Assembly (NCBI GenBank): GCA_016928095.1
Contig: JAFGLL010000051.1
Location: forward strand, 11,779-75,778
Length of the DNA: 64,000 bases
Direction: 5' to 3'
Origin: Thermoplasmatota archaeon
GTDB taxonomy: Archaea > Thermoplasmatota > Penumbrarchaeia > Penumbrarchaeales > Penumbrarchaeaceae
A program made the position numbers and the translations under genes. Under the pieces are notes generated by a model, which saw only the letters and a program-made list of their open reading frames with translations, did no database searches and was not told the DNA's origin. The number at the start of each line of letters is the position of its first letter. Positions within the stretch are counted from its first letter, which is position 1. Below, in pieces: positions 1-55,390 of the stretch.

Positions 1-1030
1 AATATGCTACGGTGGGTGGCTCATCGCCGATGATCACAGGTACGATCGGTGTATCGCTTGCACCGGTGTCGAACCCGAGCTTGTGAAGGCCGTCCTTAAG
101 ATAATTCGCGTTCTTCCATAGATTATCCTTGTGCTCGGGTTCATCCATCAATATCTGAAGGGCTTTCATTGCCGTAGCAACGTTGGATGGAGGCGGCGCC
201 GCTGAGAACATGAGGGATCTTGCAGCATGCTTGATATCGAATATCAGGTCCTCCCGTCCGACGATGAAACCTCCCATGGAGGCCAATGATTTCGAGAAGG
301 TACCCATTGTGATATCCACATCAAGTCCGAAATGGGCTGCGGTCCCACTTCCGTGGGGACCGATGACACCTATACCGTGAGCGTCATCGACCATGATCAT
401 GATATCGTTCTCCCTGCATATCCGATGGATGTCTGGAAGCTTGACGATATCACCTTCCATGGAGAATACACCGTCAGTTACCTCAAGTGCACCGATGCTC
501 TCGGGTATCTCCCCGACCACATCCTTGAGGGAACACATATCATTATGTGCATAGACGATCACCCTTGCCCTTGACATCCTTGCCCCATCTACGATGGAAG
601 CATGATTGTACTGGTCCGAGATGATGTAATCATCCTTTCCGGCGAGGGCATATATGGTTCCCAGATTGGTCTGATAACCTGTCGAGAACATGAGTGCTGC
701 CTCGGCACCCATGAAATCTGCTATGAGTTCCTCCATTTCCAGATGGATGTCCAGGGTTCCGTTGAGATATCTGGACCCTGTGCAACCCACACCAAACTTG
801 TCGATAGCGTCCTTGGCAGCTTTCTTCACTTCTGGATGTTCGGTGAGACCAAGATAGTTGTTTGAACCCAGCATCACGGTATCCTTTCCGTTCATTTTCA
901 CCCTGTGCCCCTGCTCACCGGTGACCGGTATGAAATATGGATAGAGACCTATCTCCATTGCTGATTCTATGATACGTCTGGAAAAAGGCAACCTATTCCC
1001 CTTGAGGATCCTTTTATTTCCCATATCCAT
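1..1030 (-). CDS. PLP-dependent alpha-oxoamine synthase, serine palmitoyltransferase-like (3' end truncated by window edge; absent from ORF track)
   Basis: Manual translation of the reverse strand: MDMGNKR..GLYPYF..MLGSNNYLGLT..GVGCTGSRYLNGTLDIH..STGYQTNLG..NHASI..DGVFSMEGD..DDAHGIG..GTFSKSLASMGGF. AGGTG SD at 1031-1035; ATG at 1030 or 1024. Frame is open to the window edge. Confidence 0.9.
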   Translation of the reverse strand, partial: MDMGNKRILKGNRLPFSRRIIESAMEIGLYPYFIPVTGEQGHRVKMNGKDTVMLGSNNYLGLTEHPEVKKAAKDAIDKFGVGCTGSRYLNGTLDIHLEMEELIADFMGAEAALMFSTGYQTNLGTIYALAGKDDYIISDQYNHASIVDGARMSRARVIVYAHNDMCSLKDVVGEIPESIGALEVTDGVFSMEGDIVKLPDIHRICRENDIMIMVDDAHGIGVIGPHGSGTAAHFGLDVDITMGTFSKSLASMGGFIVGREDLIFDIKHAARSLMFSAAPPPSNVATAMKALQILMDEPEHKDNLWKNANYLKDGLHKLGFDTGASDTPIVPVIIGDEPPTVAY

Positions 1031-1132: not shown

Positions 1133-1208
1133 TGGCGCCCCGAACGGAATTTGAATCCGTGTCCTCGGTTCGACAGACCGAGATGATGGACCGCTACACC
1201 ATCGGGGC
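1133..1208 (-). tRNA. tRNA-Asp(GTC), CCA encoded
   Basis: Reverse complement GCCCCGATGGTGTAGCGGTCCATCATCTCGGTCTGTCGAACCGAGGACACGGATTCAAATTCCGTTCGGGGCGCCA; acceptor stem GCCCCGA/TCGGGGC; anticodon loop CTGTCGA. Confidence 0.95.
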
Positions 1209-3357: not shown

Positions 3358-4596
3358 TTACACTATGTTCCTCATCATGGGTAAGAACCTTGGTATCAGC
3401 TTCAGGAGCGAAGGCTCTTTCCTTATTAGAAGCAGAGCGAGCCTCAACGGGTGATCTATATCACCTTCCCTGTTGATGATCTCCATCAGTTCAGGGTCCG
3501 AAAGTCTTTTAACCACCTCCTCAACCTCTTCGTCCTTGACCTGACTGATCAATTTCCTGAAGAAACGAGACCTTGACAGTTCCTTACCGTAACCGGACAA
3601 CCATGAGGACCGGAACAACTCGAGGGCATCTGGAGAGATGTCACAGGCCTTGTCCACGGAACGAACAAGGTCGTTCACCGCAAGCAATCCTGGATATATG
3701 CCTCCCCCGGATGTGGGTTTTGCCATTCCAGCTGAATCACCGAGAATGAGAGCATTACCGGAGATTATCGTTCGGGGGGAACCCATGGGAACGATACCAA
3801 TGTTGAAGGATATCTCACTTGTATGAGCGGTTCTATCACCATCGAGCCCCAACCATTCCGCAAGTCTAGCATCGTGGGGGAGGTTGGTCCAGCCTTTTCT
3901 CAGTGAATTTCCGTCCTCTGCTGCAAGACCGATCCTCATGGATGTTCTTGTCCCGGCCGGAACAGCCCATGCGAAGAAGCCTTTCGCAGTCTCTTCCCCT
4001 GTGAAGACAGCAACAATGTCATCCGGAACGGACCCTTCATCTATCTCGACCTGAAATGCAGCTCCTGGTATGATGCTGAAAGGTTTCTCGAGACCCAGGT
4101 ATCTTCTAATGGAAGAAGAAGCTCCGTCACAACCTATGAGAATCCTGGTCTTGATAATGCCCTCCCCTGAAAGGCCCCTAAAATTGACATCGAATCCTCC
4201 ATCGTTCCTCCTATCTATGCCAATGGCCTTGACGGATAGGAGTGTTTCGGTCCCTGCATCGGCGGCATTCTTCAGAAGGACCTTGTCGAACCTTGCCCGG
4301 TCCATGGATATGGCCTTTACCTTATTTGCCCTCAGGTTCAGGTATTTTCCTCCAGGTGAGTAGATGTCCGCTCCCGTGATATCGTTAAGTCTAACCCTAT
4401 CGATCACTTTATCCAGCTCAGGAAGGTCGAACATTGACCGGTTGACCAAACCGGCGCATTGTTCGGGTCGGCCAACTTCGGGATGCTCCTCGAGAAGCCC
4501 GACGGAGAAACCCTTTTTCGACAGCATCCATGCGGTATAACAACCAATAGGACCTGCACCTATGATGGTTATATCCGTCCTTTCAGGTACTCTCAA
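3358..4596 (-). CDS. Geranylgeranyl reductase family FAD-dependent oxidoreductase (probable digeranylgeranylglycerophospholipid reductase)
   Basis: GAGPIG Rossmann motif; EEHPEVGRPEQCAG; DRARFDKVL; IGCDGASS; GFFAWAVP; GDSAGMAKPTSGGGI. Confidence 0.88.
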   Translation of the reverse strand: MRVPERTDITIIGAGPIGCYTAWMLSKKGFSVGLLEEHPEVGRPEQCAGLVNRSMFDLPELDKVIDRVRLNDITGADIYSPGGKYLNLRANKVKAISMDRARFDKVLLKNAADAGTETLLSVKAIGIDRRNDGGFDVNFRGLSGEGIIKTRILIGCDGASSSIRRYLGLEKPFSIIPGAAFQVEIDEGSVPDDIVAVFTGEETAKGFFAWAVPAGTRTSMRIGLAAEDGNSLRKGWTNLPHDARLAEWLGLDGDRTAHTSEISFNIGIVPMGSPRTIISGNALILGDSAGMAKPTSGGGIYPGLLAVNDLVRSVDKACDISPDALELFRSSWLSGYGKELSRSRFFRKLISQVKDEEVEEVVKRLSDPELMEIINREGDIDHPLRLALLLIRKEPSLLKLIPRFLPMMRNIV

Positions 4597-6900: not shown

Positions 6901-9591
6901 ATGCGACCATCCACGATAAGGACATTTGCGATCGTCATGGTCATAATGACAGCTGCACTTTTCGTACTGAACTTGGATGCTTCCGCTAAGTATACCCAGA
7001 TGGTCTCTTTCAGGGAAACCGAACAGGTTGCCAACCAAGATATCGATGGCCCTATTCCGGTGAACGGTGGTATCGATGGGTCCTCCGAAGACCCAAAGCA
7101 CATCTCTCTGTCGATCGAGAACATCCAGATATCGTCAATGGTGAACAAGAAGATCTTTCCGAACACACCAGTTGATTTCATCATTGATACAAAAGGCCCT
7201 TCACCCGAAGTGGTCACATTGTTCCTGGACAATAACCACCCTTCCATGAACATTACATACGATCTTGGTCGAAATACTGTATTGGTCTCCGAGAGCCTTT
7301 ACGATCTGATCAGGGTGGACATGGAAAGGACATCAGCAAAGTTCAATGCAACAAGTAGACACTGGGAGATACTCTTCGCCCTATCGTTCGATTGGACCTT
7401 CCCCAAGGACTTCACAAAGGACATAGAGGTCACCGTTGTCGATACCTATGGTAATCTTGATAATGAGATCCTCGAGGAAGCCTATACTTTTGAACCTGAT
7501 ATCGAGATCAGCGGAGAACCGATCATCATTGTGGATGACCCAAACATCCTGACCGATGACCTTTTCATTAAAGGGGGGGAGAATATACTCCTGAAGCAGA
7601 TCAGCATTCATTTCGAGGGAGTTCCGGAGGTATCACCTGACCCGGGTGATGTCACTATAGGTGTGGAGGATTCCTTTGGCAGGTTCTGGGAATATTCTCC
7701 CAGCTTGAGAGAACAGCTTGGAGCAGTCTCCTTCTCGTTACCTGTACCAAAAATAGATGGGCCCGACACTTTCGAGTTCGTGGTTATGGAGCACCCTTCC
7801 GGGTCTGTTGTCCATGGCGGGGCAAGGTTCGATCTTAAAATAGATTCAACACCACCTTCAATGGGAGATTTCAGATACAATTCCGTCGACGGGAACCTCT
7901 TCATGAGTTGGGCATTGAACGAGGAAGGTTCCGGATTGAGGACGCAGTCGATGAAGTATTCGATCCTCGATGGAGATGAGATGATAATACCTTGGACAGA
8001 TATTCCTTCCTCGGCATTGATCGATGATAGATTGAAGCTCGAGATCGATAATGTTGAAGGTGACGACCTGCAAGTAAGACTGAGCATGGCCGACAGGGTT
8101 GGCAATGATATCCCCCAGGACCAGATCTATTATGTAACAACGGACCCAGTCGTAGCCCATGACATATCCATCGATGGGCTGAGGTATTCTCCGAACACGA
8201 TAGTGATCAATCAGGTCATTACATTCTTTGCATCCGTCCACAATCATGGGACAGAGGATGAGGGCCAAATTCAGGTTGATGTCATGGAAGACGGGAATAT
8301 CCTGACCTATATGGAGCTGGACCTTCCTGCAGGTTCGACAAGAGAGATCAGATGGACCTGGAGAGCGACAGAGGGAACCTCATATTTCGAAGTATCACTG
8401 GATCCTCAGGGCAGGGTCCCGGACGAATACATGTCCGATAATATACTTCACTTCATTGTGGAACCGGACTATCTGGATGTAACAGCAAGGGAAGATTACA
8501 TGTTGCTTTCCGATTCAAATGCCCAAGACATGGATATAATTTCCATAACGTTCTCCATCAGGTCCATAGGCGGCATCGAAAGCGGACCGATCAAGGTCAT
8601 TTTCATGGAAGAAGACAAGTTTATGGGCATGTATCAGGTCCCTTCGATCTACAAGGAGGAGGCAAGAGAACTTGTAGTCTATTGGAAGGTCGATATTTCC
8701 GTCAGGAACCTTTCATTGATGATAGATCCCTATAATGAGATCCTTGAGTCGATCGAGGATAACAACCTGTTGGTATATCAAAATCCTTTCTTCCTGTTCA
8801 TTGAACCAACACCCGATGAGAATGTCCATATCGAAGAGGATGAGTATGATACACTCGAGGAAGAAGTGATCGATGAGGCGATGAACGGAGTGACCCCCTC
8901 CGGAGGCACGACCTGGAAAGGTGAGGAGATACCTCAAAAAGAGGAGGTAACGCAAGAAGGTTCTCCATCGTTACCTGTGATCATCTCTCCAACCCCGGAG
9001 GAACCCAAGATCATACCACCTTTGATCCTTCCCACCGTTGGTTTCATACTGGGTACTGGATTGTTCAGCCTTACCATATTCGGTCTCAGAAGTGAGGTTC
9101 TCAAATTCAAGCTGCTCGGTCTTCTCATACCTCTGTATTCAAAGATCAAGAAAAGCAAGATCGAGAAGGGGACCAGACACGAGATCCTCGGTTATCTGAA
9201 GGCCAAACCTGGCGCCAATTATTCGGAGCTAAAGAGGAACCTGGACCTCAACGACGGCTCTCTGGTACATCATCTTCGTGTACTGGAACGTGAGGATATG
9301 GTATATTCCAAGAAGATGGGGAAATACAAGCTCTTCTATGTGAGCAGTTATCGTAGACAGGCAACCATCAGGGATTATATATCACCGTTCCAGCTTAGGA
9401 TAATGGAGATAATACTGCAGAATCCCGGGATCGTCCCAAATAAACTTTCCAAGATCCTGGACCGAACCCAGACCGATATGTCCTACCATCTTGGTGAGCT
9501 CTCGAGGAATGGACTTCTTGAAAAAAGGAAGAAGGGGCGGAACATACATTATTTCATATCCGAAGAATATTCGGATATTCTCACGGTCTGA
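6901..9591 (+). CDS. Membrane-anchored protein: signal peptide, Ig-like/CARDB domains, TM helix, C-terminal tandem winged-helix DNA-binding domains
   Basis: Hydrophobic N-terminus; two CARDB-like repeats (VHNHGTEDE..LDPQGRVPDEYMSDN; IRSIGGIES..IDPYNEILESIEDNN); TM ~aa 706-731; RHEILGYLKAKPGANYSELKRNLDLNDGSLVHHLRVLE and FQLRIMEIILQNPG..MSYHLGELSRNGLL wHTHs. Confidence 0.8.
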   Translation: MRPSTIRTFAIVMVIMTAALFVLNLDASAKYTQMVSFRETEQVANQDIDGPIPVNGGIDGSSEDPKHISLSIENIQISSMVNKKIFPNTPVDFIIDTKGPSPEVVTLFLDNNHPSMNITYDLGRNTVLVSESLYDLIRVDMERTSAKFNATSRHWEILFALSFDWTFPKDFTKDIEVTVVDTYGNLDNEILEEAYTFEPDIEISGEPIIIVDDPNILTDDLFIKGGENILLKQISIHFEGVPEVSPDPGDVTIGVEDSFGRFWEYSPSLREQLGAVSFSLPVPKIDGPDTFEFVVMEHPSGSVVHGGARFDLKIDSTPPSMGDFRYNSVDGNLFMSWALNEEGSGLRTQSMKYSILDGDEMIIPWTDIPSSALIDDRLKLEIDNVEGDDLQVRLSMADRVGNDIPQDQIYYVTTDPVVAHDISIDGLRYSPNTIVINQVITFFASVHNHGTEDEGQIQVDVMEDGNILTYMELDLPAGSTREIRWTWRATEGTSYFEVSLDPQGRVPDEYMSDNILHFIVEPDYLDVTAREDYMLLSDSNAQDMDIISITFSIRSIGGIESGPIKVIFMEEDKFMGMYQVPSIYKEEARELVVYWKVDISVRNLSLMIDPYNEILESIEDNNLLVYQNPFFLFIEPTPDENVHIEEDEYDTLEEEVIDEAMNGVTPSGGTTWKGEEIPQKEEVTQEGSPSLPVIISPTPEEPKIIPPLILPTVGFILGTGLFSLTIFGLRSEVLKFKLLGLLIPLYSKIKKSKIEKGTRHEILGYLKAKPGANYSELKRNLDLNDGSLVHHLRVLEREDMVYSKKMGKYKLFYVSSYRRQATIRDYISPFQLRIMEIILQNPGIVPNKLSKILDRTQTDMSYHLGELSRNGLLEKRKKGRNIHYFISEEYSDILTV

Positions 9592-12333: not shown

Positions 12334-12663
12334 GTGAATAAGATGAACGAAGATCCATCGATCTCCATGAAATTGCATTCCATACAGGGACAACTGATAC
12401 TTGCAGCCTGTGATCGCCAACTTCTTGGAAGGAGACTGAATAATGGTGATGTTCCCTTTCCGATATCGCAGAACTTCTACGGTGGGGACACGGTCAATGA
12501 CGATACGTTCCTTAATATCATAAGCCACGTAACCTCGGCCAATATCGTAGGCAACCATTGTGTTGGTCTTCTAATGGAAAGTGGCGTGGTCGATCCATCG
12601 GCTGTGATGATAATAGATGATATAATGCATGTTCAGATATATTCGGTGGCAAAGGGGAAGTGA
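12334..12663 (+). CDS. DUF424 family protein
   Basis: ILAACDRQLLG, FYGG and ANIVGNHCV motifs; typical archaeal neighbour of mcm. Confidence 0.8.
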   Translation: MNKMNEDPSISMKLHSIQGQLILAACDRQLLGRRLNNGDVPFPISQNFYGGDTVNDDTFLNIISHVTSANIVGNHCVGLLMESGVVDPSAVMIIDDIMHVQIYSVAKGK

Positions 12664-12670
12664 TGCTATC

Positions 12671-13669
12671 ATGACCGCCCGGAACGTTGCATCGAATTTG
12701 ATACCTCTTTCCGTATGGAAGGAAAAGGATTCCATAGATCGCAAAGAGGCTGATGCCCTGGTCATGATCCTGAAGACCCGAGGGTGTTCCTGGGCAAAGA
12801 GGTCTGGATGTACGATGTGCGGGTACAACAGGATAGTCTATCCCGATGTAACCTCTTCTGACCTGAAAGAACAAGTGGAGCATGCAATGAAAAGCTACAA
12901 TGATGAACCCTATGTCAAGATATTCACGTCGGGTTCGTACCTTGATCCGTGGGAGATCCCTGCAGAAACCCAGGTTGAGATGTCCAGGGTGATTGGTGAG
13001 AAGGCACCCATGGCAAGATTATTGATAGAGTCAAGACCGGAGTTCATAGATCCTGATGGATTGGAAAGAATATCCCATAATGTTGATGCACTGGAGATAG
13101 CGGTCGGTCTTGAAACATCCTCGGATGAGATCAGGGCGGTCCATATTAAAAAGGGTTTTACCTGGTCGGATTACGTGAAGGGAGGACGTATTATCTGCGA
13201 TGCGGGTTGCCTTTTAAAGTCATATCTTCTGATGAAACCTCCCTTCCTTGGAGAGGCCAATGCCATACAGGATTGCATCACCTCGATAATGAGGGTGTCG
13301 GAGGTATTCCCAGGGTCCAGGATCTCTGTGAACCCGATGAACATCCAGTCCCAAACACCTGTGGAGGACCTGTTCCGGAAAGGCTTGTACAGACCACCGT
13401 GGTTGTGGAGCCTGTTGGAGGTTTTGGATAGAGGATATGAATATGCCGATGGTAATCATATCATGTCCTCTCCGACGGCCGGGGGTCGGAAGAGGGGAGC
13501 TCACAATTGCGGAGAATGTGATGAGGGGATACTTGGGGCGATCACTTCTTTTTCGATAGATAACGATCCCTCAAAACTGAAACATCATGACCATTACTGT
13601 AAGGAGGAATGGAAAGAGCACCTGATCGGTTCTGTATCACACCCCATTGATGGCGTTCTGGGGGATTGA
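12671..13669 (+). CDS. Archaeosine biosynthesis radical SAM protein RaSEA (TIGR01210-like)
   Basis: ILKTRGCSWAKRSGCTMCGY; KIFTSGSYLD; ESRPEF; AVGLET; YLLMKPPFL; YRPPWLWS; RGAHNCGECD. ATG 12671 preferred over 12629. Confidence 0.9.
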   Translation: MTARNVASNLIPLSVWKEKDSIDRKEADALVMILKTRGCSWAKRSGCTMCGYNRIVYPDVTSSDLKEQVEHAMKSYNDEPYVKIFTSGSYLDPWEIPAETQVEMSRVIGEKAPMARLLIESRPEFIDPDGLERISHNVDALEIAVGLETSSDEIRAVHIKKGFTWSDYVKGGRIICDAGCLLKSYLLMKPPFLGEANAIQDCITSIMRVSEVFPGSRISVNPMNIQSQTPVEDLFRKGLYRPPWLWSLLEVLDRGYEYADGNHIMSSPTAGGRKRGAHNCGECDEGILGAITSFSIDNDPSKLKHHDHYCKEEWKEHLIGSVSHPIDGVLGD

Positions 13670-13785
13670 AAACACCCGAAGAACTTCAAAACTGTTTTTT
13701 TTTAAATCGCTTAAAAGACAATGAATAGAAAAATATTATCTACTAACGTACCATTCGTGAATTAAATGGCCATCTGGTGGTTATC

Positions 13786-14754
13786 ATGAGCTTCGACGAA
13801 AAAATCGAGTTCGATATGGATGATGAAGGTGGTAGAAGAAGAGAAAGGCCGAGATCATCATCATCAAAAAAGAAGGTACTATCAAAAAAGAGATCCAAAC
13901 CTAAGACTACTAAAACATCAGAAAAGAAGAAAGAAGAAGTGGAAGAAGTAGAAGAAGAAGAACGCCCCCCCAAGAAAAAAGCAACACCTTCAATAACAGC
14001 CAAGAGAAATCCGGTACCCGATGGAATAAAGAGAAAACTGGCCATGGACCTTCGCGAGATGAAGAACCTTAAAAAACAACTCAAAGAACTTGAAGATGAG
14101 AGAGGATCTTACGAGCATGAAATGGAACTTCTCGAGGATGAAATTGACAGTGTTCGCTCCGAGAAGGAAAGATTGGAAGATGAGGTCAATAACAAGATAG
14201 CACTTGTCGGGGCTTATGAGAAAAAACTCAACAGGAACCAGAAGGATTTCGATAACATCAGGAAGAGGATGCAATCAGATGTGGACCGACAGGTCAAACA
14301 GGATCAAAAAAAGGTCCTCATCGGGCTAATAGAGATAATCGATAATCTGGACAGAGCGATCCTGGAGGGAAGGAAGTATGATTACAAACCCGAGGTCTCC
14401 TTGATCATGGATGGCCTCGATTCCATAAAAAAGAACATGTTGAAGGTCCTCTCGGACACAAATGTTGAAATGTTGGACCCGATCAATGTTGCCTTCGATC
14501 CACACTTCCATGAAGCTATCGACATGGTGACGGATACTTCTGTACCGGACAAAACTGTGATAAGTGTACAATCCAAGGGGTATGTCATGGGAGATATTGT
14601 CCTCAGACCTGCGAAAGTAAATGTATCACGGGGTGGCGAACCCCGCAAAAAGGTGTCGAAAAAGAAGGAAGAAGGTTCGGAAGAAGAGGAGATACCCGAT
14701 CTTGACGAGGTCGAGGAGGAGCTTGAGGACATAGAGGAGCTGGATTCGGAGTGA
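13786..14754 (+). CDS. grpE: Nucleotide exchange factor GrpE with long charged N-terminal extension
   Basis: DFDNIRKR; IDNLDRAI; FDPHFHEAI; KGYVMGDIVLRPAKVNVS; first gene before dnaK. Confidence 0.9.
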   Translation: MSFDEKIEFDMDDEGGRRRERPRSSSSKKKVLSKKRSKPKTTKTSEKKKEEVEEVEEEERPPKKKATPSITAKRNPVPDGIKRKLAMDLREMKNLKKQLKELEDERGSYEHEMELLEDEIDSVRSEKERLEDEVNNKIALVGAYEKKLNRNQKDFDNIRKRMQSDVDRQVKQDQKKVLIGLIEIIDNLDRAILEGRKYDYKPEVSLIMDGLDSIKKNMLKVLSDTNVEMLDPINVAFDPHFHEAIDMVTDTSVPDKTVISVQSKGYVMGDIVLRPAKVNVSRGGEPRKKVSKKKEEGSEEEEIPDLDEVEEELEDIEELDSE

Positions 14755-14972
14755 TCTAATGGTATGGGGGGTCAACTCGGTTGGGTATTTGAGTTGCTGG
14801 CTCCGGTCCAAGATCACCTCCATGTGAGATCTCTTTCATTGATGAACGTAGAAACATATAAATAGTATTGTAATGTTGAAACAAATCCGTTGGATAATAG
14901 CAATATCCGTGGTCTTTGAAAATTACTCGATAATGGTGTATCCATTCATAAGATATTAGGAGGGTGATGAGC

Positions 14973-17174
14973 ATGGCAAAGGTTATCGGAATAGATCTTG
15001 GGACAACTTATTCGGCAATGGCAGTTCTGGAGGGGGGGGAGCCTGTGGTCATACCCACGGCGGAAGGAACCCGGACGATGCCTTCCGTTGTGGCCTTTAC
15101 GGAAGATGGTGAGATACTTGTCGGTCAGGTTGCAAAAAGGCAAGCCGTGACCAATCCCGAGAGGACAATATCCTCGATCAAGAGAAAGATGGGGACAAAA
15201 TACAAGGTAAAGGTCGATGAAAAGGTGTACACTCCCCAGGAGATCTCGGCCATGATCCTGAGGAAGCTTAAAAAAGATGCCGAGGAATACCTGGGAGAGG
15301 AGATCGATAAGGCTGTAATTACAGTTCCCGCTTATTTTGAGGACCCTCAGAGGCAGGCGACAAGGGATGCAGGGAGGATCGCCGGACTGGAGGTCCTGAG
15401 AATAATCAACGAACCCACGGCAGCATCACTGGCATACGGTCTCGACAAGCAGGACATCGAGCAGACAATCCTTGTGTTCGACCTGGGCGGTGGAACGTTC
15501 GATGTGTCTATCCTGGATATTGGCGAGGGTGTATTCGAGGTCAAGGCCACATCAGGTAACAATCTGCTTGGTGGTGATGATTTCGATGCTCGGATCATGG
15601 ACTGGATAATAGAAAAGTTCGATGAAGATTGCGGCATTTCACTTCGTGAGGACAGGAATGCGATGCAGAGATTGAAAGAAGCTGCGGAAAAGGCAAAGAT
15701 CGAACTTTCCTCTAGACTCGACACGAACATCAACCTGCCCTATATCGCAGCCGACAGTGATGGTCCGAAACATATCGATTATACCCTGACAAGGGCAAAA
15801 TATGAATCCCTCACGGAGGATCTAATCGATGCCACAAAAGGTCCGACAAAGAGATCATTAAAGGATTCTGGCCTGACTCCAAAGGAGATCCAGCAGATAC
15901 TCCTGGTAGGTGGGATGACAAGGACACCTGCAGTACAGAATTTTATTAAGGAGTTCTTCGGAAAGGCACCCAATAAGGGTATCAACCCGGACGAATGCGT
16001 TGCGATCGGAGCGGCCATTCAGGGTGGAGTTCTGACCGGTGAGGTCAAGGATGTCCTGCTTCTCGACGTAACACCCTTATCCCTTGGCGTAGAGACTGTT
16101 GGTGGACTTACCTCTAAGCTCATTCCCAGGAATACAACGATACCCTGCAGAAAGAACCAGATCTTCTCGACCGCGCAGGACAACCAGACATCGGTGGAGA
16201 TACATGTTGTACAGGGAGAGAGGGAGATGTCCACTGACAATAAGTCCCTTGGAAAATTCCATCTCATCGGGATACCCCCCGCTCCTAGAGGCGTGCCACA
16301 GATCGAGGTTACCTTCGATATAGATGCGAACGGTATAGTAAACGTTTCAGCGAAGGACCTCGCTACTGGCAAGGAACAGAAGATCACCATACAACCTTCC
16401 TCCGGTGTGACAGAAGATGAGGTTTCCAGGATGATAGAGGACGCTGACAAATATGAGAAGATAGACAAGAAGAAGAAGAAACTTGCAGAACTTCGGAACC
16501 AGGCGGATGCCATGATCTATTCCACGGAGAAAGCGATCGTGGAGCTTGAGGATAAACTGGACAAGAATAAGATGAAAGAGACCAAGATCGCACTGAAAGA
16601 GCTCAAGGTCCAGATGGAGGGTAAGAACGTCAAGGAACTGAAGGAGGCCATAGACATTCTTACAGAAAAGTCCCAGAGCTTGTTCGCCGATGCATACTCC
16701 GGTATCCGTGGGGATGATGAAGAAGGCTATGAACCGATCACGATAAAGTGTCCGAAGTGCAAGAAACCGATAAAGATAACCTCGCCCAAGAGGCCATTGA
16801 AGATCACCTGTCCGCACTGCGGGGCAAAGGGAACTATAAAGGGATCCCCACCCAAGAAGAAACCGGTAGAGGATCGGAAAGATGAGTCGAAAAAAGCTCC
16901 CAGGGAAGAGGAACCCAAGAAGAAGGTCAAGAAATCCTCCTCGGAAGAAAAGGAAGAGACAGAGGAGAAGAAACCTAAAAAGAAGGTGAAGAAACCTTCG
17001 GAGGATGAGGAGGAGGAAGAGGAGCCCAGGAAGAAGGGGAAAAAGGAACCGAAATATGAGCCCGAACTCATTGATTGTCCCAAATGCGGGAATGAGATCG
17101 AGATCGATTCTCCTGAAAGACCCCTAAGGGTTCAGTGCCCTGAATGCGGCGCAAAGTTGAAGATCACGGAGTGA
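14973..17174 (+). CDS. dnaK: Molecular chaperone DnaK (Hsp70) with C-terminal double zinc-ribbon extension
   Basis: GIDLGTT; TVPAYF; INEPTAA; [10 protein letters not shown]; NPDECVA; [11 protein letters not shown]; [15 protein letters not shown]. Confidence 0.98.
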
Positions 17175-17181
17175 TCGGAAA

Positions 17182-17212
17182 GGAGGGTCCGATCGGACCC
17201 TCTCTTTTTTTT
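17182..17212 (+). terminator. Hairpin plus T-tract terminator after dnaK
   Basis: GAGGGTCC-GATC-GGACCCTC stem followed by TC and T8. Confidence 0.75.
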
Positions 17213-17279
17213 CTTTGGAGTTGGATAGAATAAAATAGGATAACGATATAATGACCATTCCCTCCTGAAAGGTGATATA

Positions 17280-18323
17280 TTGGCTGATGATCATTACACC
17301 ATACTAGGGATCGAGGACGATGCCACCCAGGATGATGTAAAAAAAGCCTACAGGAAACTTGCCAAGAACCTCCATCCTGACCTGAACAAGGACGACTCTA
17401 CCGGTGCGGCCGATAGGTTTAAAAAGGTCAAGGAAGCGTACGAGATACTTTCAAACCCTTTGAAGAGAGAAAAGTATGACCTTGAGCTCATGAGATCTGG
17501 TTCAGCATCAAATCAATCTCCTGTACCACAGTCTGTTGGTTTTGTATATACAGGTCCGCCCCTTGCACCTCAGAGAGGCTCGGATGTCAAGCTTGTAATG
17601 AAGATACTCTTTCAGGAATCCTTCTCGGGTGTAAAGAAAGGTGTCGATGTCAAGATGCCTGTTAGATGTACCAATTGTGGTGGCTCAGGGTCTGCTCCGG
17701 GTACACCGGTCTCGACATGCCCCACCTGTAGAGGCTCAGGAGCATTACTTCAGCCTGTGCAGACCCCTCAAGGCTATATCAATCAGAGGATCATATGTAC
17801 CACATGCAACGGCAGGGGAATACTGATGCAGCAGTTCTGCCAGCGCTGCTCGGGTGTCGGACTGGTGAACGGTTCTGATAATGTGATCCTCTCTCTTCCT
17901 CCAGGGGTAGAAGACGGTGCAATAATTAAGATAAATGGTAAAGGAGGATACGGCCTTGGGAATGGTCCGAGAGGGGATCTTTTAATAACAGTGAACGTCG
18001 AGGAGCTTCCGAACATGAAGCGGGTCGATAATGACCTGTATATCGAAGAGTCGATCTCGCTCCCCAAAGCTGTCTTTGGGGGGAAACAGAGGGTCAACAC
18101 TCTGGAAGGAAGAAGGACCCTCAGGATACCTTCCTTGACAAAGAGCAGGACAGAGTTCCTCATAGAGAGCGAAGGTTTCCCTGACCCGGTGACCGGTGAA
18201 CACGGTGATCTCTACGTGGTCGTTTACATTGACCCGCCGGAGGACCTGACCGAGGGTGCCAAAAAAGCCCTCAAGAAGTATGCTCTGGAAATGGGCGAAG
18301 ACCTCAATGACCTGGGTCTCTAG
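17280..18323 (+). CDS. dnaJ: Chaperone DnaJ (Hsp40)
   Basis: J-domain with HPD; four CxxCxGxG repeats (CTNCGGSG, CPTCRGSG, CTTCNGRG, CQRCSGVG); GDL motifs in the C-terminal domains; TTG start. Confidence 0.93.
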   Translation: MADDHYTILGIEDDATQDDVKKAYRKLAKNLHPDLNKDDSTGAADRFKKVKEAYEILSNPLKREKYDLELMRSGSASNQSPVPQSVGFVYTGPPLAPQRGSDVKLVMKILFQESFSGVKKGVDVKMPVRCTNCGGSGSAPGTPVSTCPTCRGSGALLQPVQTPQGYINQRIICTTCNGRGILMQQFCQRCSGVGLVNGSDNVILSLPPGVEDGAIIKINGKGGYGLGNGPRGDLLITVNVEELPNMKRVDNDLYIEESISLPKAVFGGKQRVNTLEGRRTLRIPSLTKSRTEFLIESEGFPDPVTGEHGDLYVVVYIDPPEDLTEGAKKALKKYALEMGEDLNDLGL

Positions 18324-21980: not shown

Positions 21981-23810
21981 ATGTATGGGGTAAGATCGAA
22001 GGTTGGGTCTTTTCAGGAGCAGAGAGACCATGATAAGAACATGCCTCAGCTGATATCGCAGATAGATACCGGTTTGCCGGAGGTCATCAAGGATAGAACC
22101 CTCGACACTCTATATCTGGGTTATCAGAAATTGGTTCCGGATGATCCTCAAGAATATGCCCATAAAAGGTCGTCAAATGACCATCCAGTCGGGTCTGGTA
22201 TCTGTGGACCATTCCCGTACAGGTCCATCATGGCAATAGAAAAGGACAGCGTGAACTCGATCAGGAGCGAGTTCAATGCGGCGATAAAGATGGGGTTCGA
22301 ACTGGTGCAGATAAGGCTGGACACCTTGAAACCCGGGAATACACCAGAGTCAAGAGCAAGGATGGGCGTCTACATAGTCCAGATAGCGTCGTTCTCAAAA
22401 AAGAACATCATCATCTCCTTACCACCTGGCCGTTTCGGAGGAAAGGTTGATGAGATTTCCCTCCCTGAACTTGTCCGCTTGGACCTCCTGATGATGATGG
22501 CTTCACAGGGATTTGCATGGCTGGAGCTTGAAGATGACATTCCCCTGAGCGAGATGACGGAGATCATCAAGAGAGCTCATGGATCAGGGACGAAGGTCCT
22601 TCTTTCAAGGTATCACGGATCTGCTGACAACTGGGTTCCACCTTCTCCCGGGGTCCAGCAGATGATCGACGGTTACAGGCTCAGGATATCCGTTTCCTCC
22701 GGCAAGGAGCTGAAAAAGTTCCTCAGGACATGCGGTCTGATCAGAAGCACCCTTAAGAACAAGTCCAAGATGATCGATCTGAAGAATTCCATTGCCGACG
22801 ATCTGAGATGGTTGACCCCTTTTCTTGGTTCGGATAATCTCGTGATGGGTCCCATGACCGATCCTGACCTCCATAACCATGGAGGGATGAGATACGGATG
22901 TGAACCTGCAATGGAATTCTGGAGAAGGACGGGACTCGTGGGTGAAGGTGTCGGCAAGGAATGGTCACTTCAGGACAGATGTATTGACAGCAACACAAGG
23001 ATAATGGCACGGATCGGAGGTGAAGGCGGTAATGACCTTATGATGCGTGTCCATAACAGTATTTTCAAGAGGAATGACAACAATGCTGTCATACTGCCAT
23101 GGCAAGTATCAAAAAAGGATGTGAACGGTTTTTTCAGGATGGCGAAGGACCTGGAACTATGCGGGATAATGGTCGATAAACCGTTCAACAGCACTGCTTT
23201 ATGGAACATGGACGATACAGATCCAGCATCAAGGAAGGTGGGGGCAGTGAACCTTGTACTTGGAAACAGGGGTAAATTGTCCGGATACAACACGGAGATC
23301 TACGCGATGACAGATATCCTGAAGGAGAACGTAGGAATTGATGGGGGCAAGGTGCTCGTGCTTGGATGCGGACCCAGCGGCAGGTCTGCAGCGATGGCGT
23401 CACATATTATCGGGTGTGATACAACGATCTCCGTATCGAGCACCGATAGGATAGAGGACCTGTCGATCTCCCTTGGTATCCCTCTGGAGGTCGTTTCATA
23501 CAAAGAACTGGGGGAGCCGGGAAGAAGATATGATGTGATCATCAACACACTCCCTTCCGGTTTCTTTTTTGAAACAGGTAGAGGGAGAATGAGCATCCCT
23601 GGCCTGGTCGGGAGAATGTCGCATACCATCGGGATAGAGATGTCGAGGTCAAATGTGGTGACACCTTTCCTCTCATCTCTAAGGACCAATGGTAACAAGA
23701 CCCATCCTGTCACTGAGATGATGGTCCGAACGGCCATCATTGACCAGAAACTGCTCTTGGACCAGGATATCATGGATGATATGGTCCGTGATCTGATATC
23801 AGGGCTTTGA
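21981..23810 (+). CDS. Type I 3-dehydroquinate dehydratase / shikimate dehydrogenase-like fusion with degenerate active sites
   Basis: QIRLD, LELE, SRYH and VMG of the AroD fold; HNSIF, VGAVN, GYNTE, VLGCGPSG and IINT of the AroE fold. Confidence 0.7.
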   Translation: MYGVRSKVGSFQEQRDHDKNMPQLISQIDTGLPEVIKDRTLDTLYLGYQKLVPDDPQEYAHKRSSNDHPVGSGICGPFPYRSIMAIEKDSVNSIRSEFNAAIKMGFELVQIRLDTLKPGNTPESRARMGVYIVQIASFSKKNIIISLPPGRFGGKVDEISLPELVRLDLLMMMASQGFAWLELEDDIPLSEMTEIIKRAHGSGTKVLLSRYHGSADNWVPPSPGVQQMIDGYRLRISVSSGKELKKFLRTCGLIRSTLKNKSKMIDLKNSIADDLRWLTPFLGSDNLVMGPMTDPDLHNHGGMRYGCEPAMEFWRRTGLVGEGVGKEWSLQDRCIDSNTRIMARIGGEGGNDLMMRVHNSIFKRNDNNAVILPWQVSKKDVNGFFRMAKDLELCGIMVDKPFNSTALWNMDDTDPASRKVGAVNLVLGNRGKLSGYNTEIYAMTDILKENVGIDGGKVLVLGCGPSGRSAAMASHIIGCDTTISVSSTDRIEDLSISLGIPLEVVSYKELGEPGRRYDVIINTLPSGFFFETGRGRMSIPGLVGRMSHTIGIEMSRSNVVTPFLSSLRTNGNKTHPVTEMMVRTAIIDQKLLLDQDIMDDMVRDLISGL

Positions 23811-29082: not shown

Positions 29083-29916
29083 TCATATTATGCTCCAGAT
29101 GATGAAGACAGCCATGGCTGTCAGCATTCCCAACTTGGCTGTCCTCTGGGCCCACAAAGGGTTCTTGAAAAGTAATATCGAGGATAGGATCAATACCCCA
29201 TCCGCCACCGATATCCAGATAAGATATGCAGGAGCCCATCCAAGGAAAACGAGAGGTATGGAACTGGACATGACCGCAAGAAACATTGTTGCAAGACCAA
29301 TAAAGGACGCGTATCTGGTCCCAATTGTCTGTGGAAGGGTCCTCCTTCCTATATCCTGATCTTGGTCCTGTATGTCCTTCATTATCTCCCTTGAGGTGTT
29401 GGACAGGAATGCCATCAGGAAGATGGTAAGGATGAGGGGAGAGTAACCAGCGATGGAGCCACCCAGCAAGAAAGGGATACCAGTAAGCGATCCCACGATA
29501 AGATTGCCTGGCATACCCATACCCTTCAGCCTTTTCTCGTAGTACACTATCAGTGCTGTGGCCATGATCACTATAAATAGGGGGAGAAATGCTCTGACCA
29601 TCAATGATGCGATACAGGCCGAAAGGATGCCTGCGCTCCATGATAAAAAAAAGACCATCCTGGCATTCTTTTCAGAAATGGACCCGGCCACCAGAGGGCG
29701 CGTGGCATGTGCTTTCCGGTCTATCTCCACATCTTCGAGGTCGTTCAGGACGTTGCCCCCGCTTACCATGAAGAATGCGGAGATGGAGAGAAGCAACAAT
29801 GAGATCCGGTGGGACAGGAAAGGGCCCTGTTCAATGATGTATCCTATCATTACCGCCACGGCTGCCATGGAACCGTTCAGGGGCCGCAGGACGACGATGT
29901 GGTCTTTCCATCTCAT
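29083..29916 (-). CDS. UbiA family prenyltransferase, probable DGGGP synthase (geranylgeranylglycerol-phosphate geranylgeranyltransferase)
   Basis: LRPLN; NDLEDVEIDRKAHATRPL; YEKRLK..GNLIVG; REIMKDIQD..D..TLP; multiple TMs. ATG 29916 preferred (ORF extends to 29940). Confidence 0.85.
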   Translation of the reverse strand: MRWKDHIVVLRPLNGSMAAVAVMIGYIIEQGPFLSHRISLLLLSISAFFMVSGGNVLNDLEDVEIDRKAHATRPLVAGSISEKNARMVFFLSWSAGILSACIASLMVRAFLPLFIVIMATALIVYYEKRLKGMGMPGNLIVGSLTGIPFLLGGSIAGYSPLILTIFLMAFLSNTSREIMKDIQDQDQDIGRRTLPQTIGTRYASFIGLATMFLAVMSSSIPLVFLGWAPAYLIWISVADGVLILSSILLFKNPLWAQRTAKLGMLTAMAVFIIWSII

Positions 29917-34973: not shown

Positions 34974-38510
<3,537 letters not shown>

Positions 38511-55386: not shown

Positions 55387-55390
55387 TATC

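What the first reader, a model, noticed from the sequence alone, without database searches (positions are those of the whole stretch)
1..1030. Bacteroides-type serine palmitoyltransferase-like enzyme in an archaeon
Seen: a reverse-strand ORF, missed by the track, encodes GLYPYF, GSNNYLGLT, GCTGSRYLNGTLDIHL, STGYQTNLG, DGVFSMEGDI and GTFSKSLASMGGF. Known (from recall): the GSR[FY]LNGT motif, including the Asn equivalent to Sphingomonas SPT N100, and the upstream YPYF and GTFSKSLA motifs mark the bacterial SPT clade (e.g. Bacteroides BT_0870). Kbl instead has VR.I.GT and BioF has other motifs. Inference: an archaeon that also encodes ether-lipid genes in this window (GGR 2.3 kb away, DGGGP synthase) may condense an amino acid with an acyl-CoA or acyl-ACP to make sphingoid or other aminolipids.
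Basis: partly seen in the sequence, partly recalled or inferred. Interest (0 to 1): 0.75.

Follow-up and report, generated by a model that had tools for sequence, protein, structure and literature searches.

The report
Serine-palmitoyltransferase-like enzyme gene in an archaeon
An uncultured sediment archaeon (Thermoplasmatota) stably carries a bacterial-type gene whose product looks like serine palmitoyltransferase, the enzyme that starts sphingolipid synthesis, a lipid class that the literature I could search does not report from archaea; its activity is untested.

Summary
A minus-strand ORF starts at 1030 (or 1024), runs off the window start, and carries all six quoted motifs. It is 343 of 403 residues.

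It is a PLP-dependent alpha-oxoamine synthase. Its closest solved relative is Sphingobacterium multivorum serine palmitoyltransferase (SPT): 51% identity, and the AlphaFold model fits it with TM 0.91-0.94.

In a bootstrapped NJ tree it falls, with 94.5% support, in one clade with three characterised SPT types and three bacterial Spt genes that sit beside ceramide-synthase-like and reductase-like genes. Kbl, ThAOS and BioF fall outside. Diagnostic residues are SPT-like, not Kbl-like or SulA-like.

The host is archaeal. The gene is resident: the same neighbours recur in independent Thermoplasmatota assemblies, composition is native, there is a TATA-like box, and dN/dS is about 0.02-0.07. A sister archaeal clade places the gene beside a ketosynthase-ACP fusion, an MMPL transporter and lipases.

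Caveats:
- It misses NCBI's Bacteroidota-SPT cut-off (498 vs 640 bits) and is only 44-45% identical to Bacteroides SPT.
- No partner genes lie nearby.
- Substrates are inferred only.

Verdict: a probable long-chain-base synthase, the first archaeal member I could find.

The parts
1..1030 (-). N-terminal 343 of 403 codons of a PLP-dependent alpha-oxoamine synthase of the SPT-like clade. The stop codon lies about 180 nt beyond the window start. An alternative start is ATG 1024.
932..949 (-). GLYPYF (residues 28-33). Tyr30, Tyr32 and Phe33 correspond to Tyr25, Tyr27 and Phe28 of S. multivorum SPT. [quoted passage not shown]
   Evidence: One search shows it conserved in the SPT-like sequences aligned there (the alpha-proteobacterial SPT is not aligned at this N-terminal stretch) and absent from Kbl, ThAOS and BioF. 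Role of the residues from PMC10196870.
755..778 (-). GSRYLNGT loop (residues 85-92). Ser86 sits at the position that is Val in all Kbl (ThAOS Val79) and Ser in SPT and AONS. Thr84, just before the loop, is the true equivalent of S. paucimobilis Asn100 and S. multivorum Ala79.
   Evidence: PMC11906848. PMC10196870.
602..604 (-). His143, equivalent to His138 (S. multivorum) and His159 (S. paucimobilis). It stacks on PLP and anchors the substrate carboxylate.
   Evidence: invariant in all sequences..
377..388 (-). DDAH (Asp215-His218). Asp215 pairs with PLP N1, Ala217 packs on the ring, and His218 bonds O3'.
287..304 (-). GTFSKS PLP-binding motif (residues 243-248). The Schiff-base lysine Lys247 is encoded at 290-292.
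   Evidence: Described as the SPT-characteristic motif in PMC10196870. Kbl and ThAOS have SKA or GKA.
200..211 (-). MFSA (residues 274-277). Ala277 sits at the position that is Ala in bacterial Spt and Lys281 in the cysteate acyltransferase SulA.
   Evidence: PMC9304779.
1056..1063 (-). TTTAAATA, an archaeal TATA-box-like element. Its 3' end lies 25 nt upstream of ATG 1030, which implies the gene has its own promoter and a short or absent leader.
   Evidence: Similar boxes lie at the same distance in orthologous loci L002, L006, L009, L010 and L030. The function of the box is inferred, not shown.
1133..1208 (-). tRNA-Asp(GUC) immediately upstream on the same strand. It is a neighbour rather than part of the gene; its 3' end is also visible upstream of the orthologue in L030.

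Best explanation
The ORF encodes a soluble, PLP-dependent alpha-oxoamine synthase of the serine-palmitoyltransferase (Spt-like) clade; by analogy with the solved SPTs it is probably a homodimer.

Proposed mechanism, by analogy with the solved S. multivorum and S. paucimobilis enzymes:
1. Lys247 holds PLP as an internal aldimine.
2. A small L-amino acid, most likely L-serine, displaces it. His143, Arg370 and a water network on Ser86 hold its carboxylate. Asn57, Gly85 and Ser246 surround its side chain.
3. A long-chain acyl thioester binds in a hydrophobic channel walled by Tyr32 and Tyr88.
4. Claisen-type condensation with loss of CO2 gives a 3-keto long-chain base (3-ketosphinganine-like amino ketone).

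The gene was acquired from bacteria by an ancestor of a Thermoplasmatota lineage and has been inherited vertically since, under its own archaeal promoter. The acyl donor in this lineage is probably acyl-CoA rather than acyl-ACP.

What is shown: the fold, the catalytic residues, the clade, residency in an archaeal genome, and purifying selection. What is inferred: the substrates, the product and its fate.
For: Sequence, HMM and fold
- The best PDB match is S. multivorum SPT: 430 bits, 51% identity over 377 aa. Next come S. paucimobilis SPT at 288 bits, ThAOS at 281, Kbl at 227-235, SulA at 240 and BioF at 210 or less.
- The AlphaFold2 model (pLDDT 92.6) fits 8guh and 3a2b best: TM 0.91-0.94, rmsd 1.3-1.4 A.
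- The NCBIfam ranking is SerpalmtaseCFB 498, then TIGR01825 414, Kbl 372 and BioF 367.
- Bacterial Spt genes validated by their gene cluster score 444-591 on the same SPT model. True Kbl scores 375 on it but 570-689 on the Kbl models.

Phylogeny
- NJ tree of 131 sequences, 391 columns, 200 bootstraps.
- The archaeal clade groups with S. multivorum SPT, Bacteroides and Parabacteroides SPT orthologues (NF047600 684-700 bits), and S. paucimobilis SPT.
- The same clade holds three Spt genes flanked by homologous bCerS-like and CerR-like genes: Aureispira L026, Rubrobacter L027 and P0118/L036.
- Support is 94.5% against Kbl, ThAOS and BioF.

Diagnostic residues
- Ser86 (Val in Kbl), GTFSKS, Ala277 (Lys in SulA; Thr or Asn in Kbl and BioF), the YxYF motif, and all PLP ligands.
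- These are invariant, or changed in at most one sequence, across the 33 archaeal sequences (papers).

Residency in the archaeal genome
- The order MCM, CARDB/HTH, amidohydrolase, GGR, DNA ligase, AOS is the same in the independent assemblies L002, L004/L005, L006/L007, L030 and L031, at 64-85% protein identity.
- GC3 is 0.59, like the neighbouring genes. dN/dS is about 0.02-0.07.
- A TATA-like box recurs at the same distance upstream.

Sister clade
- The sister archaeal clade (TBP gene on the contig) places the gene directly after a KS-ACP fusion and a cis-prenyltransferase, beside an MMPL transporter, a patatin lipase and a PlsC-type acyltransferase. This is a lipid context.
Against: - No biochemical data exist for this protein or for any member of its clade.
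- It does not reach the curated cut-off of any NCBIfam equivalog.
- Pairwise identity to S. aureus Kbl (44.6%) equals that to Bacteroides SPT.
- No ACP, acyl-ACP synthetase, bCerS-like, CerR-like or DAG-kinase-like gene lies in the 64-kb window or within 10 kb in the archaeal relatives examined. The rest of the genome could not be searched.
- Archaea generally lack ACP-based fatty-acid synthesis, so the source of a long acyl chain is unknown.
- Two positions near the substrate or acyl site differ from bacterial relatives. Phe338 is Phe in 79 of 79 bacterial hits but Val, Met or Ala in the archaeal clade. Ser275 is replaced by Ala. These changes could alter specificity.
- The tree is distance-based and lacks ALAS, CqsA and SulA sequences.
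- No transcript was found in the one metatranscriptome of the same study.
Confidence: 0.6

Rival explanations
1. It has the SPT fold and belongs to the SPT clade, but uses a different substrate pair. The amino acid could be alanine, glycine or another. The acyl group could be unusual, for example isoprenoid-derived or a polyketide-type acyl carrier product. The product would be a non-sphingoid amino-ketone lipid or a secondary metabolite rather than 3-ketosphinganine.
For: - Substitutions specific to the archaeal clade lie at the acyl-site core (Phe338 to Val, Met or Ala) and next to the PLP-phosphate loop (Ser275 to Ala).
- Thr84 sits at the position whose mutation in human SPTLC1 (Cys133) changes amino-acid choice.
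- The sister clade couples the enzyme to a PKS-like KS-ACP and a cis-prenyltransferase.
- No ceramide-pathway partner genes lie nearby.
Against: - First-shell residues are otherwise identical to S. multivorum SPT.
- Thr at position 84 is also found in 47 of 79 bacterial relatives and in the Rubrobacter Spt, which has bCerS-like and CerR-like neighbours.
- Known SPTs already tolerate Ala and Gly as minor substrates, so this rival overlaps with the main explanation.
Confidence: 0.2
2. It is a Kbl-type or ThAOS-type short-chain enzyme, that is, glycine C-acetyltransferase or a promiscuous alpha-oxoamine synthase. It would serve threonine catabolism or glycine metabolism.
For: - Archaeal AOS of this type exist. 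The Halobellus gene sits next to an epimerase-family dehydrogenase and has ThAOS as its best PDB match at 350 bits.
- P0001 scores 372 bits on NF005394 and 414 on TIGR01825.
- It is 44.6% identical to S. aureus Kbl.
Against: - It has Ser86 where all Kbl have Val, SKS rather than SKA, and Ala277 rather than Thr or Asn.
- It falls outside the Kbl/ThAOS group with 94.5% bootstrap support.
- It is below both Kbl cut-offs, 460 and 493.
- No threonine dehydrogenase lies nearby.
Confidence: 0.1
3. It is BioF (8-amino-7-oxononanoate synthase) for biotin synthesis. Several metagenome pipelines label relatives this way.
For: - JGI names several clade members '8-amino-7-oxononanoate synthase'.
- It scores 367 bits on TIGR00858, whose cut-off is 426.
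- BioF also has Ser at the Val79 position, and some BioF have GSR.
Against: - It is below the BioF cut-off, and cluster-validated Spts score even higher on the BioF model (379-424).
- BioF sequences form the outgroup in the tree.
- No bioA, bioD or bioB genes lie in the window or flanks, whereas real BioF genes in L018, L024 and L025 sit inside bio operons.
- It has Ala277 rather than Thr, and a YxYF N-terminus that BioF lacks.
Confidence: 0.07
4. It is a bacterial gene wrongly joined to an archaeal contig by an assembly or binning artefact.
For: - The gene lies at the window edge.
- Its closest non-archaeal relatives are bacterial.
Against: - The same gene lies between the same archaeal genes in at least six independent assemblies from NCBI, JGI, ENA and Logan.
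- Composition matches the neighbours.
- A single Logan contig covers the junction at uniform depth.
Confidence: 0.01

Closest known systems
Serine palmitoyltransferase of Sphingobacterium multivorum (PDB 3A2B, 8GUH). This is the soluble homodimeric bacterial SPT of the CFB type (NCBIfam NF047600).
   Same: - 51% identity over 377 aa. It is the best sequence match and the best fold match (TM 0.91-0.94).
- The PLP ligands are identical: His, Asp, Ala-His, Thr and Lys in GTFSKS.
- The substrate-carboxylate network (Ser, Met, Arg) and the Asn-Tyr pair are identical.
- It shares the N-terminal Tyr-x-Tyr-Phe motif.
   Different: - 498 bits on NF047600, below the 640 cut-off.
- Ala79 is Thr84, Ser53 is Asn58, Phe83 is Tyr88, Phe338 is Val341 and Ser275 is Ala278.
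- There is a 2-residue deletion before the GTFSKS strand.
- The host is an archaeon with ether-lipid genes, not a Bacteroidota bacterium.
Bacterial 'Spt-like' clade B of Ding, von Meijenfeldt et al. 2024 (PMC11334938). These are Spt homologues from many anaerobic bacterial phyla, often clustered with bCerS and CerR.
   Same: - The nearest bacterial relatives (54-60% identity) carry names from Marinimicrobia, Zixibacteria, Thermodesulfovibrio and Deltaproteobacteria.
- One of them, P0118, is flanked by CerR-like and bCerS-like genes.
- The archaeal clade nests among them in the tree.
   Different: - That study found no archaeal MAG with an Spt-like protein. This clade is archaeal.
- The archaeal loci show no bCerS or CerR neighbours.
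- Membership of their clade B was not tested with their reference set.
Kbl / ThAOS (2-amino-3-ketobutyrate CoA ligase; Thermus thermophilus promiscuous AOS, PDB 7POA)
   Same: - Same fold and same Claisen-type PLP chemistry.
- 32-45% identity. The fold match is TM about 0.9.
   Different: - Val, not Ser, at the amino-acid-selectivity position.
- SKA motif, and Thr or Asn instead of Ala277.
- Separate clade.
SulA / CapB cysteate acyl-ACP transferase (Alistipes finegoldii, PDB 7U7H)
   Same: - Same fold.
- Condenses a long-chain acyl group with an amino acid to start a sphingolipid-like lipid.
   Different: - About 33% identity.
- The defining Lys281 is Ala277 here.

Membership tests
Alpha-oxoamine synthase family (PLP fold-type I, Pfam PF00155) | Significant match to the family profile over the whole catalytic domain | tested here: met
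   PF00155 at 160 bits, E=1e-46, residues 50-337 of the in-window part
Alpha-oxoamine synthase family (PLP fold-type I, Pfam PF00155) | Catalytic set: Schiff-base Lys, stacking His, Asp to the pyridine N1, His to O3', and Arg for the substrate carboxylate | tested here: met
   Lys247, His143, Asp215, His218 and Arg370 are present. They are invariant in the 48-sequence alignment, and in the wider 112-sequence comparison except where one short fragment has a gap at Arg370
Alpha-oxoamine synthase family (PLP fold-type I, Pfam PF00155) | AOS three-domain fold | tested here: met
   AF2 model with pLDDT 92.6. TM 0.85-0.94 to all solved AOS. The dimer was not modelled
Bacterial serine palmitoyltransferase (Spt / Spt-like clade) | Phylogenetic grouping with biochemically characterised SPTs to the exclusion of Kbl, BioF and other AOS | tested here: met
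   94.5% NJ bootstrap for a clade holding S. multivorum, Bacteroides-type and S. paucimobilis SPTs plus three cluster-validated Spts. Kbl, ThAOS and BioF fall outside. ALAS, CqsA and SulA were not in the tree but are more distant by score. ML was not run
Bacterial serine palmitoyltransferase (Spt / Spt-like clade) | SPT-type active-site signature: GTFSKS, Ser at the ThAOS-Val79 position, and Ala at the SulA-Lys281 position | tested here: met
   G243-S248, Ser86 and Ala277 (definitions)
Bacterial serine palmitoyltransferase (Spt / Spt-like clade) | Curated equivalog score (NF047600 at 640, NF047599 at 500, NF047603 at 670) | tested here: not met
   498, 370 and 327 bits. The cluster-validated Spts of Aureispira, Rubrobacter and P0118 also fail, at 487, 444 and 591, so the cut-off defines the CFB subgroup, not SPT activity
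Bacterial serine palmitoyltransferase (Spt / Spt-like clade) | Genomic association with ceramide-pathway genes (bCerS, CerR, ACP, acyl-ACP synthetase, lipid kinase) | tested here: not met
   No tblastn hit in the 64-kb window or within 10 kb in the archaeal relatives examined. Clustering is not obligatory: Bacteroidota and Cloacimonadota also lack it. Whole genomes could not be searched
Bacterial serine palmitoyltransferase (Spt / Spt-like clade) | Catalyses L-serine plus long-chain acyl thioester to 3-ketodihydrosphingosine | not testable with these tools
   Needs an enzyme assay
Kbl (glycine C-acetyltransferase) | Conserved Val at the ThAOS-Val79 position, curated score, and tdh neighbour | tested here: not met
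   Ser86. 372 bits against a cut-off of 460, and 291 against 493. No tdh nearby
BioF (8-amino-7-oxononanoate synthase) | Curated score (TIGR00858 at 426) and bio-operon context | tested here: not met
   367 bits. No bioA, bioB or bioD in the window or flanks. Outgroup position in the tree
SulA/CapB cysteate acyltransferase | Active-site Lys (SulA Lys281) in place of the Spt alanine | tested here: not met
   Ala277, invariant in the archaeal clade

The most novel reading that the evidence does not exclude
Two related archaeal lineages, this Thermoplasmatota clade and a sister clade, make sphingoid-type long-chain amino-lipid bases. The sister clade's gene sits in an MMPL / KS-ACP / cis-prenyltransferase / lipase cluster. 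This would be the first sphingolipid-like biosynthesis in Archaea. It would have been acquired from bacteria and kept for a long time alongside isoprenoid ether lipids. Clade-specific changes in the acyl pocket (Phe338 to Val, Met or Ala) might adapt the enzyme to a non-bacterial acyl donor.
Probability: 0.35. Interest if true: 0.8.

Novelty: new member of a known kind. Interest (0 to 1): 0.62.

Why it matters
Sphingolipids are known from eukaryotes and a growing list of bacteria. The papers I could search describe archaea as never reported to make them. A large survey found no Spt-like gene in archaeal MAGs (PMC11334938).

A conserved, selected, natively expressed-looking SPT-clade gene in archaea gives a concrete, clonable candidate. 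With it one can test whether some archaea add bacterial- or eukaryote-style amino-lipids to their ether-lipid membranes.

This bears on three questions:
- the 'lipid divide';
- how sedimentary sphingolipid biomarkers are attributed to source organisms;
- how lipid pathways move between domains.

If the enzyme turns out to use another substrate pair, it is still a new specificity within a biocatalytically useful enzyme family.

Tried and rejected
- **Own contig.** I tried to fetch the window's own 101,893-bp contig beyond the window start through the exact protein. It is not on record. The C-terminus and 100 nt downstream came from Logan contig L001 instead.
- **Partner genes.** I searched by tblastn with bCerS-like, CerR-like, ACP, acyl-ACP-synthetase-like, DAG-kinase-family, SDR-type and E. 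coli Tdh queries taken from bacterial and haloarchaeal loci. The targets were the window and the fetched archaeal loci. Nothing turned up, apart from a generic epimerase 8 kb away in the sister clade.
- **Conserved neighbours.** The 302-aa and 237-aa genes downstream in relatives have no family match. They look like soluble acidic proteins unrelated to lipids.
- **KS-ACP search.** I used a database search on the sister clade's KS-ACP fusion, hoping to find a Thermoplasmatota copy. The top 120 hits are bacterial PKS-like proteins plus a few labelled Asgard or haloarchaeal, and none labelled Thermoplasmatota. This is uninformative for the window's lineage.
- **Transcription.** One metatranscriptome from the same study holds no matching contig, which is not evidence of absence.
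- **Literature.** Searches for archaeal SPT or AOS reports found none.
- **Contamination.** I considered and rejected contamination or chimera (see rivals).
- **Cysteate acyltransferase.** I considered and rejected this reading (Ala277, 33% identity).
- **Corrected estimate.** My own early estimate of 57% identity to S. multivorum SPT was too high. The aligned value is 51%.
Full report
**1. Observation**

Translating the minus strand of bases 1-1300 shows one long open frame. It starts just after a stop at 1036: GTG at 1033, ATG at 1030, and a second ATG at 1024. It is still open at the window edge, giving 343 codons from 1030. The complete protein was recovered from public data as P0001 (403 aa) and P0002 (401 aa, from the second ATG), the latter on a 6,989-bp Logan contig that matches the window. 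Orthologues begin MGxKR, so 1024 may be the real start. The window therefore lacks the last 60 or so codons.

**2. What the protein is**

Pfam gives Aminotran_1_2. Among NCBIfam models, the full-length protein ranks as follows:

| Model | Score (bits) | Cut-off |
|---|---|---|
| NF047600 'serine palmitoyltransferase, CFB type' | 498 | 640 |
| TIGR01825 | 414 | 535 |
| Kbl NF005394 | 372 | 460 |
| beta-proteobacterial SPT | 370 | 500 |
| BioF | 367 | 426 |

No curated cut-off is reached.

Against solved structures, the scores are:

| Structure | Score (bits) |
|---|---|
| S. multivorum SPT | 430 |
| S. paucimobilis SPT | 288 |
| ThAOS | 281 |
| SulA (7u7h) | 240 |
| Kbl | 227-235 |
| BioF | 210 or less |

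Identity to S. multivorum SPT is 51%. An AlphaFold2 model built on 48 homologues (pLDDT 92.6) superposes best on 8guh and 3a2b, with TM 0.91-0.94 and rmsd 1.3-1.4 A. All other AOS structures follow at TM 0.8-0.9. The fold confirms the family but cannot discriminate substrate.

**3. Calibrating the HMM scores**

I scored reference proteins taken from annotated records (P0118):

- The Parabacteroides and Bacteroides genes that sit next to a diacylglycerol-kinase-family gene reach 684 and 700 bits on NF047600. They are bona fide members.
- Three bacterial Spt genes are flanked by mutually homologous bCerS-like (about 370-385 aa) and CerR-like (NAD(P) oxidoreductase) genes: Aureispira, Rubrobacter, and the metagenomic P0118. 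They score only 487, 444 and 591.
- A true Kbl (S. aureus) scores 375 on the SPT model but 570-689 on the Kbl models.

The archaeal protein's profile (498 on SPT, with an 84-bit margin over the next model) is that of the cluster-validated Spts. Failing the 640-bit cut-off says 'not the CFB subgroup'. It does not say 'not an SPT'.

**4. Phylogeny**

I aligned the 120 best database hits with 14 references:

- S. multivorum and S. paucimobilis SPT, transcribed from the PDB alignments;
- the S. parapaucimobilis SPT with its ACP neighbour;
- the two Bacteroidales SPT orthologues;
- the Aureispira and Rubrobacter cluster Spts;
- E. coli and S. aureus Kbl;
- ThAOS;
- a Halobellus AOS;
- three BioF proteins from bio operons.

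An NJ tree (Kimura distances, 391 columns, 200 bootstraps) gives 94.5% support for a clade of all SPT and Spt references plus all hits. Kbl, ThAOS, the Halobellus AOS and BioF fall outside (the first version gave 92%). Within that clade:

- The Thermoplasmatota sequences form a 100%-supported group.
- Their sister, at 92%, is a set of 391-aa proteins (P0037-P0040).
- S. paucimobilis SPT is the deepest branch, and the S. multivorum and Bacteroides SPTs are nested on the other side.

The archaeal clade is therefore bracketed by characterised SPTs. Limits: the method is distance-based, ALAS, CqsA and SulA are not in the tree, and internal nodes are weakly supported.

**5. Residues**

Mapping the S. 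multivorum active site (PMC10196870) onto P0001 gives:

| S. multivorum | P0001 | Note |
|---|---|---|
| Asn52 | Asn57 | |
| Tyr54 | Tyr59 | |
| Gly80-Ser81-Arg82 | Gly85-Ser86-Arg87 | |
| Asn85 | Asn90 | |
| His138 | His143 | |
| Ser185 | Ser190 | |
| Asp210 | Asp215 | |
| Ala212-His213 | Ala217-His218 | |
| Thr241 | Thr244 | |
| Ser243-Lys244 | Ser246-Lys247 | in GTFSKS |
| Met271-Phe272 | Met274-Phe275 | |
| Arg367 | Arg370 | |

Three positions discriminate between families:

- Ser86 is Val in every Kbl and in ThAOS, where it limits the amino-acid scope. It is Ser in SPT and AONS (PMC11906848).
- Ala277 is Ala in bacterial Spt, Lys in the cysteate acyltransferase SulA (PMC9304779), and Thr or Asn in Kbl and BioF.
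- The N-terminal Tyr30-x-Tyr32-Phe33 corresponds to residues that wall the acyl-chain site in S. multivorum SPT. It is absent from Kbl, ThAOS and BioF.

Differences from the bacterial relatives are Thr84 (Ala79 in S. multivorum, Asn100 in S. paucimobilis), Tyr88 for Phe83, Ala278 for Ser275, and Val341 for Phe338. Phe338 is Phe in all 79 bacterial hits but Met, Val or Ala in the archaeal clade. The last two changes are clade-specific and lie near the PLP-phosphate loop and the acyl-site hydrophobic core. Their effect is unknown.

Counting along the printed alignment puts N100 opposite Thr84.

**6. Host and residency**

The window encodes the following:

- MCM;
- a FEN1-type nuclease;
- an ATP-dependent DNA ligase (TIGR00574, 460 bits);
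- the archaeosine radical-SAM enzyme RaSEA (above cut-off);
- EMC6-arch;
- a geranylgeranyl-reductase-family protein (TIGR02032, above cut-off; 3358-4596);
- a UbiA prenyltransferase that scores 173 bits on a DGGGP-synthase model (its second-best match), below cut-off (29083-29940).

Database names for the close homologues are Thermoplasmatota or Thermoplasmatales MAGs. The only public run holding the sequence is a sediment metagenome.

The gene order MCM, small ORF, CARDB/HTH protein, amidohydrolase, GGR, DNA ligase, AOS recurs in independent assemblies whose AOS proteins are 64-85% identical. In most of them a large NosD/beta-helix surface protein follows.

Gene GC (0.506) and GC3 (0.59) equal those of the neighbours. 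Nei-Gojobori dN/dS against five orthologues is about 0.02-0.07, with saturated dS.

A TTTAAATA box lies 25 nt upstream of ATG 1030, and similar boxes sit at the same distance in five orthologous loci. tRNA-Asp lies just upstream on the same strand.

The gene is thus an old, fixed, selected resident of this archaeal lineage. It is not a contaminant.

**7. Context**

Neither the 64-kb window nor the 10-kb flanks of the archaeal relatives contain any of these:

- ACP;
- ketosynthase;
- acyl-CoA or acyl-ACP synthetase;
- bCerS-like, CerR-like or lipid-kinase genes;
- threonine dehydrogenase;
- biotin genes.

Lack of clustering does not exclude sphingolipid synthesis. Bacteroidota and Cloacimonadota Spt genes are also unclustered (PMC11334938). 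It does leave the pathway downstream of the enzyme unknown.

The sister clade is informative. Its contigs are archaeal too, because one carries a TBP gene (199 bits). There the AOS is the third or fourth gene of a same-strand array:

1. an MMPL/RND transporter;
2. a FabF-like ketosynthase fused to an ACP;
3. a UppS-like cis-prenyltransferase;
4. the AOS;
5. a patatin-like lipase.

A PlsC-type acyltransferase lies nearby in one contig. That is a lipid-making and lipid-exporting context with a built-in acyl carrier. It fits a long-chain acyl substrate for this branch of the family. I found no close copy of the KS-ACP labelled Thermoplasmatota, so the window's lineage probably uses another acyl donor. 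Acyl-CoA is the obvious candidate, but this is inference.

**8. Mechanism proposed**

By homology with the solved SPTs:

1. Lys247 carries PLP as an internal aldimine.
2. L-serine, or a similarly small L-amino acid, forms the external aldimine. His143, Arg370 and waters on Ser86 and Met274 hold its carboxylate.
3. Binding of a long-chain acyl thioester triggers deprotonation.
4. Claisen condensation, decarboxylation and release of a 3-keto long-chain base follow.

Shown here: the family, the clade, conservation of every catalytic and first-shell residue, the fold, residency and selection. Inferred: which amino acid, which acyl donor, and what the cell does with the product.

**9. Comparison with what is known, and novelty**

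The enzyme is an ordinary-looking member of the bacterial Spt-like radiation. What is new is the host. The full-text library returned no paper that links SPT or alpha-oxoamine synthases of this type to archaea. The largest survey states that no archaeal MAG encoded an Spt-like protein and that archaea have never been reported to make sphingolipids. NCBI labels the clade only as 'aminotransferase class I/II-fold PLP-dependent enzyme', and JGI labels it BioF. I therefore rate it a new member of a known kind, of moderate to high interest. It offers a directly testable candidate for amino-lipid or sphingoid-base synthesis in Archaea, and the sister-clade gene cluster is an additional lead.

**10. 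Verdict**

| Question | Result |
|---|---|
| Observation | confirmed |
| SPT-type long-chain-base synthase (best explanation) | confidence 0.6 |
| SPT-fold enzyme with another substrate pair (main rival) | 0.2 |
| Kbl-type or ThAOS-type | 0.1 |
| BioF | 0.07 |
| Assembly or binning artefact | 0.01 |

Noticed in passing
L028:448-8499, L033:1-6147, L034:2-8170, L032:3-5167 and 9005-9547: A sister archaeal clade (TBP gene on contig L032) carries the SPT-like gene in a conserved same-strand cluster: an MMPL/RND transporter, a FabF-like ketosynthase fused to an ACP, a UppS-like cis-prenyltransferase, the AOS, then a patatin-like lipase. A PlsC-type acyltransferase lies nearby. This looks like an uncharacterised archaeal lipid-synthesis and export cluster.
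   Followed up: partly
window 8-10 (codon of Val341), and alignment position Phe338 of S. multivorum SPT: Phe338 belongs to the hydrophobic core next to the acyl-chain site. It is Phe in all 79 bacterial relatives but Met, Val or Ala throughout the archaeal clade. Ser275 is likewise Ala in all archaeal members. These may mark altered acyl or substrate preference.
   Followed up: partly
window 14964-17174 (+): The DnaK (Hsp70, 785 bits) is 736 aa long and carries C-terminal zinc-ribbon matches (Zn_ribbon_LysW, Zn_ribbon_4, HypA-like) after the Hsp70 domain. This is an unusual extension. It sits in a GrpE-DnaK-DnaJ row (13777-18323).
   Followed up: no
window 12629-13669 (+), 55154-56065 (+), 56062-56733 (+): Archaeosine and 7-deazaguanine pathway genes are scattered in the window: RaSEA (TIGR01210, above cut-off), QueC and QueE-like radical SAM.
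   Followed up: no
window 48608-52264 (+): A 1218-aa protein combines a HerA-type DUF87 ATPase domain with a C-terminal TrmB-type winged helix. Function unknown.
   Followed up: no
window 21981-23810 (+): A 609-aa ORF has weak type-I dehydroquinase and shikimate-dehydrogenase matches. It may be an AroD-AroE fusion with extra sequence. The long ORF start may be over-called.
   Followed up: no
window 29083-29940 (-) and 29831-32461 (-): The UbiA/DGGGP-synthase-like ORF overlaps by about 110 nt the end of an upstream 876-aa ORF that has no family match. The true UbiA start is probably further downstream.
   Followed up: no
window 34986-38510 (+): A single-chain 1174-aa pyruvate:ferredoxin oxidoreductase of the fused type, with higher GC3 (0.69) than its neighbours (0.53-0.60).
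   Followed up: no
L002:16449-18162, L004:15751-17446, L006:15737-17495, L031:13264-15000: Downstream of the AOS in most relatives lie three conserved genes: a zinc-ribbon-like 55-aa ORF, a repeat-rich acidic protein of about 300 aa, and a protein of about 237 aa. None has a family match. The corresponding region lies outside the window.
   Followed up: partly
L022:1909-4185 (Halobellus limi plasmid): A haloarchaeal AOS sits next to an NAD-dependent epimerase-family gene. Its best PDB match is ThAOS (350 bits). It is probably an SDR-type threonine dehydrogenase plus Kbl pair. This shows that archaeal AOS of the Kbl type exist and are distinct from the window's protein.
   Followed up: partly
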